Notes under the pieces: generated by a model
The model's input: the letters and a program-made list of their open reading frames with translations, nothing else
Database searches by the model: none
Told to the model about the DNA's origin: nothing
From: Escherichia coli
GTDB taxonomy: Bacteria; Pseudomonadota; Gammaproteobacteria; Enterobacterales; Enterobacteriaceae
Strand: one strand, 5' to 3'
Assembly: GCF_013122565.1 (NCBI RefSeq)
Contig: NZ_CP053258.1
DNA length: 64,000 nucleotides
Shown: positions 7,579-7,620 of the stretch, piece by piece
Position numbering within the stretch: position 1 is the stretch's first letter
Layout of the letters: every line of letters begins with the position of its first letter
Position numbers and translations under genes: made by a program

Positions 7579-7620
7579 TCTCCCGGCTACACTGGCTACG
7601 TGTAGCCAGTGTAGCCGGGA
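7579..7620. repeat. Perfect 20-bp inverted repeat (ctcccggctacactggctac / gtagccagtgtagccgggag) with 2-nt spacer
   Basis: Read directly; lies 18 bp after stop of the 615-aa ORF; no flanking T-run on either strand. Confidence 0.9.

What the first reader, a model, noticed from the sequence alone, without database searches (positions are those of the whole stretch)
7579..7620. Perfect 20-bp inverted repeat immediately downstream of the orphan ORF
A 42-bp near-perfect palindrome without a U-tract is unusual for a simple intrinsic terminator. It could be a protein recognition site, a cruciform-forming element or a recombination target within the cargo slot.
Basis: seen in the sequence. Interest (0 to 1): 0.4.

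Follow-up and report, generated by a model that had tools for sequence, protein, structure and literature searches.

The report
Conserved iteron palindrome of a genomic island
The 42-bp perfect palindrome is real and is not a scattered REP element or an ordinary terminator; it is a single-copy DNA site made of four GCTAC repeats that travels with the helicase and nickase genes of a family of defence-carrying genomic islands, and is most likely their replication origin.

Summary
The arms 7580-7599 and 7602-7621 are 20 nt, 100% complementary, with a 2-nt centre. They start 18 nt after the stop of a 616-aa ORF, and no T-run follows on either strand.

The palindrome occurs once in the window and at most once per genome elsewhere. 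It is never scattered like a REP element.

It recurs downstream of every ORF616 homologue examined, down to 30% protein identity (Escherichia to Proteus, Providencia and Morganella). Four GCTAC/GTAGC units at 9-bp spacing are kept while the spacers change in a compensatory way.

In Pseudomonas, Ottowia, metagenomes and two plasmids, which lack ORF616, the same site still lies within 0.7 kb of an alpA-DUF3987(YfjI)-(YfjJ) operon. In several of these it sits in divergent promoter regions where no gene ends.

Unit number varies (1+2, 2+2, 3+2, 3+3, 4+2). Distant copies keep the units but lose spacer symmetry.

DUF3987 is an MCM-like replicative helicase, and YfjJ models as an HUH nickase.

Best reading: the island's initiator-binding site or origin, sitting at the border between core genes and cargo. 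Function is inferred, not shown. No description of it turned up in the searched literature.

The parts
7580..7621 (.). The palindrome (PAL): two 20-nt perfectly complementary arms (7580-7599, 7602-7621) around a 2-nt centre (GT)
7585..7590 (+). Outer left repeat unit GGCTAC. Family consensus of the 9-bp unit is C-K-G-C-T-A-C-R-N.
7594..7599 (+). Inner left repeat unit GGCTAC, 9 bp after the outer unit
7602..7607 (-). Inner right repeat unit (GTAGCC on the + strand, GGCTAC on the - strand)
7611..7616 (-). Outer right repeat unit (GTAGCC on the + strand)
7630..7640 (+). TGAAAGTAACA, the last stretch shared with the 76%-identical E. coli and Salmonella islands. Homology ends at 7640, which is the edge of the conserved module.
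5711..7561 (+). ORF616 (RefSeq start corresponds to 5717). A conserved, unannotated all-alpha TPR-like protein, always divergent from alpA. In Enterobacterales the palindrome always follows its stop codon.
5392..5616 (-). alpA-family HTH gene (PF05930)
3841..5367 (-). yfjI (DUF3987), the candidate replicative helicase and the constant neighbour of the palindrome in all lineages
91..585 (-). Truncated or frameshifted yfjJ-like remnant (HUH Rep-like), separated from yfjI by IS fragments
   Evidence: weak Pfam match only
9160..10251 (-). P4-type tyrosine integrase, convergent with ORF616. In this window the module has the K-12 CP4-57 order relative to int.

Best explanation
The palindrome is a cis-acting DNA site of the island's replication module: alpA, then yfjI (DUF3987, an MCM-like SF6 helicase), then yfjJ (an HUH nickase-like Rep). 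It is built from 9-bp iterons with consensus C-K-GCTAC-R-N, arranged as two inverted pairs. Most likely it is the origin, the place where the island's initiator binds after excision. Two routes are possible. The helicase could load head-to-head through its C-terminal winged helix, as SV40 large T antigen does on the four GAGGC repeats of site II. Or YfjJ could bind the repeats on an extruded hairpin and nick nearby, as parvoviral NS1/Rep does on the ACCA or GAGC repeats of its hairpin origin. Shown here: the anatomy, the conservation, the covariation, and the constant linkage to DUF3987 and alpA in unrelated gene orders. Inferred: which protein binds, and that binding starts replication. Because it is the last constrained element of the module, the site also marks the border where variable defence cargo begins.
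For: 1. The site is conserved without having been selected by any pattern search. It is present after every ORF616 homologue fetched by protein identity, down to 30% identity, in Escherichia, Salmonella, Klebsiella, Citrobacter, Proteus, Providencia and Morganella.
2. The 16 core pairs are paired in all 9 of these sequences. Eight pairs show changes on both sides. The covariation score is 0.308 against 0.124 for shuffles, with 0 of 500 shuffles as high.
3. GCTAC/GTAGC is invariant while the spacers take 12 different symmetric triplets.
4. It behaves like a set of iterons. The units within one arm are direct repeats of each other. Copy number varies: 1+2 in L003, 4+2 in L024, 3+3 in L044, 3+2 in L054. 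Distant copies keep the GCTAC units but lose spacer symmetry (L043, L055, L064, plasmid L090).
5. Linkage to the module persists across different gene orders. Without ORF616 the site lies upstream of alpA (L021, L050, L065, L044), 35-140 nt after DUF3987 (L020, L043, L055, L064), or about 100 nt after yfjJ (L048, L055, L090, L041).
6. In L050, L065 and L044 it sits between divergent genes, where nothing terminates.
7. DUF3987 is an SF6/MCM-like replicative helicase with a C-terminal wHTH (PMC4889955) and has demonstrated 5'-3' helicase activity (PMC11724360).
9. Short AT-rich tracts flank the site on both sides, +11% and +15% AT.
10. There is one copy per island and no extra half-sites.
Against: There is no experimental evidence of replication for these islands. 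K-12 CP4-57 has yfjI and yfjJ but no such palindrome, so the site is not universal for DUF3987/YfjJ islands. The G-versus-T variant of the unit does not track the YfjI clade, so co-evolution with the helicase is not shown. YfjJ was not found near the site in several non-enterobacterial loci, though those contigs are short. No DnaA boxes and no conserved nick motif were found. The invariance of GCTAC in the metagenome and genome hits is partly built in by the search pattern. Perfect arms could be maintained by template-switch correction of quasi-palindromes rather than by selection. In Enterobacterales the position just after a stop codon also fits a transcript 3'-end role.
Confidence: 0.45

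Rival explanations
1. RNA-level element. The hairpin forms in the ORF616 transcript and acts as a U-tract-less terminator, a pause site, a 3'-exonuclease barrier or an RNase III site, insulating the core operon from convergent cargo genes.
For: The site is always 18-85 nt after the ORF616 stop in Enterobacterales. The RNA hairpin is very stable. In several lineages a T-run follows within about 4-15 nt (L011, L027, L025, L036, L077). Genes often converge on it.
Against: The window copy has no U-tract on either side and is not called by the terminator scan. No Rfam family matches. A terminator would not keep GCTAC invariant across 30% protein identity, nor have direct-repeat units of variable number. 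The same site occurs upstream of alpA between divergent genes. There is no excess of G.U-type pairs among the departures from pairing: 7 G.T against 17 other mismatches.
Confidence: 0.12
2. Operator for a transcription regulator. A dimer or tetramer of AlpA, or another island or host HTH protein, binds the inverted repeats to control the module or the excision switch.
For: alpA accompanies the site in nearly all loci. In L021, L050, L065 and L044 the site lies 84-200 nt upstream of alpA, in promoter regions. Inverted repeats are the usual form of operators.
Against: In Enterobacterales the site is 1.9 kb from the alpA and ORF616 promoters, at the 3' end of a gene. In other loci it lies after DUF3987 or yfjJ. 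A 40-bp site with perfect arms and four to six repeats is unusual for an operator. The only AlpA site characterised in the papers read (P. aeruginosa, GGGACG, one copy) is unrelated.
Confidence: 0.15
3. Origin of transfer or another nick site for mobilisation. An HUH enzyme (YfjJ, or a helper or island MobA-type relaxase) binds the inverted repeat and nicks beside it, so that a helper conjugative element or phage moves the island.
For: YfjJ has an HUH nickase fold. A MobA/MobL relaxase gene ends 16 nt before the site in Ottowia, and another lies 4 kb away in L044. An inverted repeat next to a nic site is the standard oriT anatomy. Related alpA islands (PIMEs) carry oriT sites with 17-20 bp inverted repeats (10.64898/2026.01.12.698999).
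Against: No conserved nic-like motif was seen beside the site. No similar site was found on conjugative plasmids or phages that could act as helpers. The only plasmid hits are yfjJ-linked copies. Most enterobacterial islands have no relaxase gene. The Ottowia mobA is truncated.
Confidence: 0.12
4. Recombination site or hotspot. The palindrome is where cargo is swapped or the module is inverted, either as the target of a recombinase or because hairpin-forming DNA breaks there.
For: Unrelated cargo flanks begin 0-4 nt outside the outer repeat in several independent cases: L086 GTAGCC|TCCTTCC (Hachiman), L002 GGGGGG|CTTACATTG, and L046, L045 and L038. The whole module occurs in both orientations relative to int (window and K-12 order against L002-L015 order). 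L041 has two copies flanking a yfjJ 3' fragment. L056 is a fold-back centred on the site.
Against: A sharp homology border is expected at the last selected element of any conserved module. No recombinase co-varies with the site. It lacks attC features: there are no extrahelical bases and no GTTRRRY. The ORF616 fold is not that of a recombinase, nuclease or protelomerase. This model does not explain the conserved GCTAC iterons and the linkage to the helicase gene.
Confidence: 0.08

Closest known systems
SV40/polyomavirus core origin site II (and papillomavirus E1 binding site)
   Same: A perfect palindrome of about 27-40 bp made of four short recognition repeats arranged as two inverted pairs. 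It is flanked by AT-rich DNA and lies next to the gene of a hexameric replicative helicase that assembles head-to-head on it (general knowledge of SV40 large T antigen and GAGGC pentanucleotides).
   Different: Here the repeat is GCTAC at 9-bp spacing rather than GAGGC at 6 bp. The helicase is SF6/MCM-like (DUF3987), not SF3. Binding and origin activity are untested. The host is a bacterial integrative island.
Parvovirus hairpin origins (AAV ITR Rep-binding element, MVM NS1 ACCA repeats)
   Same: An HUH nickase together with a helicase acts on a palindromic hairpin whose stem carries tandem tetranucleotide repeats. The YfjJ model's best structural matches are these NS1/Rep nickase domains.
   Different: In the islands the nickase and helicase are separate proteins. 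No terminal-resolution or nick site has been identified. The DNA is an integrated double-stranded element, not a linear single-stranded genome.
Iteron origins placed beside the rep gene in satellites and mobilisable islands (SaPI/PICI ori, P4 ori/crr, PIME oriV)
   Same: Short repeats next to the island's own primase, helicase or rep gene, one site per element, in int-alpA-rep type islands (for PIME oriV; general knowledge for SaPI and P4).
   Different: Those origins are mostly direct iterons around an AT-rich spacer, often with a DnaA box. This one is a compact, nearly loop-less perfect palindrome with no DnaA box.
REP/BIME elements and their RAYT transposases
   Different: REPs occur in hundreds of copies per genome, and their palindromes are imperfect. 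This site is single copy and island-bound.
Rho-independent (intrinsic) terminator
   Same: A GC-rich stem immediately after a stop codon, between convergent genes.
   Different: A 20-bp perfect stem, a 2-4 nt loop, no U-tract, sequence-specific conservation, and occurrence in promoter regions in other lineages.

Membership tests
REP/BIME repetitive extragenic palindromes | Many dispersed copies per genome | tested here: not met
   There is one copy in the 64-kb window. 22 of 5,426 E. coli genomes matched, with a median of one place per genome; the 2-3 places reported in a few were not examined individually. There were 12 single-copy hits in about 100,000 species genomes.
REP/BIME repetitive extragenic palindromes | Imperfect palindrome of about 35 bp matching the species' REP consensus | tested here: not met
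   The arms are 20 bp and perfect. The sequence is unrelated to the E. coli REP consensus (recalled from memory). No Rfam match.
Intrinsic terminator | GC-rich hairpin directly followed by a U-tract | tested here: not met
   The stem is present, but no T-run follows on either strand in the window. The site is not called by the scan. T-runs occur 4-15 nt away in some relatives.
Intrinsic terminator | Located at the 3' end of a transcription unit | tested here: inconclusive
   Met in all ORF616 loci. Not met in L050, L065 and L044, where the site lies between divergent genes.
Iteron/palindromic replication origin | Several copies of a short recognition unit at helical-repeat spacing | tested here: met
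   Four GCTAC units at 9-bp spacing. Unit consensus is CKGCTACR. Copy number is 3 to 6 in relatives.
Iteron/palindromic replication origin | Physical linkage to the element's own initiator or helicase gene | tested here: met
   The site is within 0.7 kb of the alpA-DUF3987-(yfjJ) operon, or separated from it only by ORF616, in every locus with enough sequence.
Iteron/palindromic replication origin | Adjacent easily unwound AT-rich DNA | tested here: inconclusive
   Only short tracts: +11% and +15% AT in the 20-nt bins on either side.
Iteron/palindromic replication origin | Supports initiator-dependent replication | not testable with these tools
   Needs a replication assay.
oriT | Inverted repeat with a conserved nic sequence a few bases away, recognised by a relaxase | tested here: inconclusive
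   The inverted repeat is present. No conserved flank motif appears across clades. A relaxase gene is nearby in only 2 loci. YfjJ is HUH-like.
Integron attC | Imperfect hairpin with extrahelical bases, R''/L''/L'/R' boxes, GTTRRRY, and an IntI integrase | tested here: not met
   The pairing is perfect and no GTTRRRY is present. The integrase is P4-type with an Arm-binding domain.
Protelomerase target (telRL) | Palindrome next to a gene for a protelomerase (tyrosine-recombinase-like fold) | tested here: not met
Any Rfam RNA family | Score at or above the family's gathering threshold | tested here: not met
   The best score is 24 bits against a threshold of 96, a microRNA model matching only as a generic hairpin.

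The most novel reading that the evidence does not exclude
PAL is the origin of a previously unrecognised bacterial replicon type. A separate HUH nickase (YfjJ) and an MCM-like SF6 helicase (YfjI) would act together on a hairpin-forming iteron palindrome, as a split, bacterial counterpart of parvoviral NS1/Rep. The breaks or hairpins made there would also drive cargo swapping and module inversion, which would explain why defence systems pile up exactly at this border in CP4-57-like islands.
Probability: 0.12. Interest if true: 0.8.

Novelty: new variant of a known kind. Interest (0 to 1): 0.5.

Why it matters
Islands of the int-alpA-yfjI-yfjJ type (CP4-57-like) are among the commonest carriers of anti-phage defence systems in Enterobacterales. 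I found no literature on how they replicate or move, and yfjI, yfjJ and ORF616 have no described function in what I searched. A conserved, easily recognised cis site gives a concrete candidate origin to test. It is also a sequence landmark for the core/cargo border, useful for delimiting defence hotspots. It links a DUF3987 helicase and an HUH protein to a defined DNA target. If the site also promotes rearrangement, it would help explain how cargo turns over in these islands.

Tried and rejected
- REP-type element: rejected, because the site is single copy everywhere.
- Known RNA family: none matches.
- Canonical terminator: no U-tract, and not called by the scan.
- Protelomerase site with ORF616 as the enzyme (suggested by the 616-aa size and the TACGCGTA centre): rejected, because the ORF616 model is a TPR-like solenoid.
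- ORF616 as a known defence or Pfam family: no hits in Pfam, PADLOC or NCBIfam.
- Second copies or half-sites elsewhere in the islands, such as att arms or the alpA promoter: none found.
- Mimic of a plasmid or phage ori or oriT: no matches in the phage collection, and only yfjJ-linked copies in two plasmids.
- DnaA boxes near the site: none consistent.
- Conserved nick-like motif in the flanks: only clade-specific conservation.
- Same site in K-12 CP4-57: absent.
- Literature search for the sequence itself: only unrelated PCR primers.
- P. aeruginosa AlpA binding element: unrelated.
- Alternative pairing of 7430-7461 with 7555-7586: not pursued, because the upstream arm encodes the conserved PGEE motif of ORF616 and the match is only 75%.

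Full report
**Observation.** The window holds a perfect inverted repeat. The arms are 7580-7599 (CTCCCGGCTACACTGGCTAC) and 7602-7621 (GTAGCCAGTGTAGCCGGGAG), with GT between them. This is one base to the right of the stated coordinates. It begins 18 nt after the TAA stop (7559-7561) of a 616-codon ORF (5711-7561). No T-run follows on either strand, and the terminator scan does not report the site. None of 100 shuffles reproduces it. It is the only perfect inverted repeat with arms this long and almost no loop in the 64 kb. As single-stranded DNA it folds at -24.8 kcal/mol (z = -8.1). As RNA in context the z-score is -6.7. Each arm is itself a direct repeat of GGCTAC with a 9-nt period.

**Not a dispersed repeat.** The site is single copy in the window. 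An 81-nt query finds it in 22 of 5,426 complete E. coli genomes (median one place per genome), always after the same ORF. The four other genomes I inspected from the 43 that share this yfjI-alpA clade also carry it, so the 22 is an undercount. A degenerate pattern (CTACANNNGCTACNNGTAGCNNNTGTAG) gives 12 single-copy loci in about 100,000 species genomes, one in IMG/VR and 56 in metagenomes. No Rfam family matches.

**Context.** ORF616 has no Pfam, PADLOC or NCBIfam match. It does have about 70 homologue clusters, all in Enterobacterales.
- In every locus fetched, ORF616 is divergent from an alpA-family gene, which is followed by yfjI (DUF3987) and yfjJ (YagK/YfjJ).
- A P4-type integrase sits beside ssrA or another att site.
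- Variable defence cargo starts right after the palindrome. Examples are NERD-kinase-helicase, GAP1/DO-GTPase, type I RM, Hachiman and TIR systems.
- ORF616 is therefore a conserved gene of the island backbone, not an orphan in a cargo slot.
- In the window the module has the K-12 CP4-57 order relative to the integrase (int, ORF616 reversed, then alpA, yfjI, yfjJ). Most relatives have the opposite order.

**Conservation.** Downstream of every ORF616 homologue fetched by protein identity, and so not selected by any DNA pattern, the palindrome is present:

| Source | Sequence |
|---|---|
| window | CTAC ACTGG CTAC GT GTAG CCAGT GTAG |
| E. coli 53 | AGTGG / CCACT |
| Klebsiella, Citrobacter | AGCTG / CAGCT |
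| Proteus, Providencia | AATGG / CCATT |
| Morganella | outer CTAC changed to CAAC, with GTAG changed to GTTG |

On these nine sequences the 16 core pairs are paired in every case. Eight pairs show changes on both sides. The covariation score is 0.308 against 0.124 for shuffles, and 0 of 500 shuffles reach it. Over 51 distinct 46-mers from all sources, the inner GCTAC/GTAGC is invariant and the outer unit nearly so, while the spacer takes 12 different symmetric triplets. The central dinucleotide varies freely as R-Y. Departures from pairing show no excess of G.T wobble: 7 against 17 other mismatches. The invariance of GCTAC in the pattern-derived loci is partly built in by the search. The nine protein-derived loci are the unbiased evidence.

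**The site behaves as a set of iterons, not only as a hairpin.**
- The two units within an arm resemble each other. The unit consensus is C-K-G-C-T-A-C-R-N.
- Unit number varies: 1+2 in E. albertii (L003), 4+2 in Providencia (L024), 3+3 in L044 and 3+2 in L054.
- More distant copies keep the GCTAC units at 9-bp spacing but have non-complementary spacers (L043/L067, L055, L064, plasmid pAR0468_1).
- A pure hairpin model predicts neither the direct-repeat structure nor retention of the units when pairing is lost.

**Linkage to the replication module.** In loci that lack ORF616 the site is still beside the alpA-DUF3987 operon:
- 84-200 nt upstream of alpA in Pseudomonas nitritireducens (L021), and in L050, L065 and L044;
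- 35-140 nt after DUF3987 in Ottowia (L020), L043/L067, L055 and L064;
- about 100-180 nt after yfjJ in L048, L055 and two enterobacterial plasmids.

In L050/L065 and L044 it lies between divergent genes, where no transcript ends. This argues against a purely terminator role. DUF3987 is the constant partner. YfjJ is not always seen, though several of those contigs are short. The TG-type islands carry, right after the palindrome, a 40-residue C-terminal yfjJ fragment of the L048 type, and L041 has two palindromes flanking it. This suggests that yfjJ followed by the palindrome is an old arrangement and that rearrangements have end points at the site. K-12 CP4-57 has yfjH in place of ORF616 and lacks the site.

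**What the neighbouring proteins are.**
- DUF3987 proteins are SF6, MCM-like replicative helicases with a C-terminal winged helix (PMC4889955). One has been shown to be a 5'-3' helicase working with a primase-polymerase (PMC11724360).
- YfjJ has the PF11726 domain and a sub-threshold match to the Rep ORF2/G2P family.
- RefSeq names YfjJ 'inovirus Gp2 family protein'.
- In YfjJ, H-Y-H and several Tyr and Lys residues are invariant.

**Best explanation (confidence 0.45).** The palindrome is the cis site of this helicase and nickase module, most likely the island's replication origin.
- The anatomy, four short repeats as two inverted pairs in a perfect palindrome next to the helicase gene, is that of SV40 site II.
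- Repeats carried in a hairpin stem and served by an HUH nickase plus a helicase is the anatomy of parvoviral origins.
- Short AT-rich tracts flank the site (+11% and +15% AT), but there are no DnaA boxes.
- The binder and the activity are inferred. The G/T variant of the unit does not follow the YfjI clade. No nick motif is conserved. K-12-type islands lack the site.
- Arm perfection might also be kept by template-switch correction of quasi-palindromes, a known mutational process, rather than by selection for a hairpin.

**Rivals.**
- RNA terminator, stabiliser or RNase III site (0.12). This fits the position after the stop and the T-runs seen 4-15 nt away in some lineages. It does not fit the window's lack of a U-tract, the invariant units or the promoter-region copies.
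- Operator for AlpA or another HTH protein (0.15). This fits the alpA linkage, but not the 1.9-kb distance from the promoters in Enterobacterales. The characterised P. aeruginosa AlpA site is unrelated.
- oriT or mobilisation nick site (0.12). This is suggested by YfjJ's HUH fold, by a MobA/MobL gene ending 16 nt before the site in Ottowia, and by analogy with PIME oriT. No nic motif was found, and no helper plasmid or phage carries the site.
- Recombination site or hotspot (0.08). Cargo junctions fall 0-4 nt outside the outer unit in several independent cargo types, the module occurs in both orientations, and one contig is a fold-back centred on the site (L056). A sharp border is, however, expected at the last constrained element of any module.

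**Novelty and score.** No paper in the searchable library holds the sequence or assigns a function to yfjI, yfjJ or this ORF. The kind of element, an iteron or palindromic origin next to a rep gene, is known. This version and its host replicon appear undescribed, so I rate it a new variant of a known kind. Interest is 0.5. The finding is solid as a conserved, module-linked cis element and gives a testable origin candidate for a widespread family of defence-carrying islands, but the function is not demonstrated.

Noticed in passing
L056 (metagenome contig ERZ1035032 NODE-147), centre at 603-630: A perfect fold-back of at least 602 bp centred on the palindrome, with the cargo-side flank on both arms. 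It is either an assembly or library artefact at a palindrome, or a real inverted duplication.
   Followed up: no
window 5711-7561 (ORF616): A conserved 616-aa protein with no family assignment. Its model is an all-alpha TPR-like solenoid whose best, weak matches are RRNPP-type peptide receptors (NprR, Rap, AimR). It may be a sensor or regulator paired with alpA.
   Followed up: partly
L004 1934-2611, and yfjJ in all loci; window 91-585 holds a remnant: YfjJ/YagK models as an HUH endonuclease (parvovirus NS1 nickase-like) with an invariant H-Y-H motif. This suggests a function for an E. coli y-gene family.
   Followed up: partly
L029 (K-12 CP4-57), about 4525-4540, between intA and the yfjH 3' end: A 16-bp perfect palindrome, ATGACTGCGCAGTCAT, sits in the position equivalent to the window's palindrome but has an unrelated sequence. 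It could be chance.
   Followed up: no
window 7641-9160: About 1.5 kb of AT-rich DNA with no convincing ORF lies between the palindrome and the integrase. It is present in only 3 of 5,426 E. coli genomes.
   Followed up: partly
window 895-3669: A cluster of IS fragments (ISL3-like 895-1407, IS256/Mutator-type transposase 2542-3669) separates yfjI from the yfjJ remnant, so this copy of the island is probably immobile.
   Followed up: partly
window 31923-31938 / 31958-31973, and 11007-11022 / 11060-11075: Two other inverted repeats: one with 16-nt perfect arms and a 19-nt loop, and one with 16-nt arms at 94% and a 37-nt loop.
   Followed up: no
L086, L009, L003, L011, L015 (the slot immediately after the palindrome): The first genes after the palindrome are different defence systems in different relatives: Hachiman, GAP1/DO-GTPase, NERD-kinase-helicase, type I RM, and TIR/Thoeris-like plus nucleotide-modification genes. 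The site marks a defence hotspot border.
   Followed up: partly
L041 1792-1819 and 2051-2078: Two copies of the palindrome lie 259 bp apart and flank a 40-residue C-terminal yfjJ fragment. This looks like a trace of a rearrangement with end points at the palindrome.
   Followed up: partly
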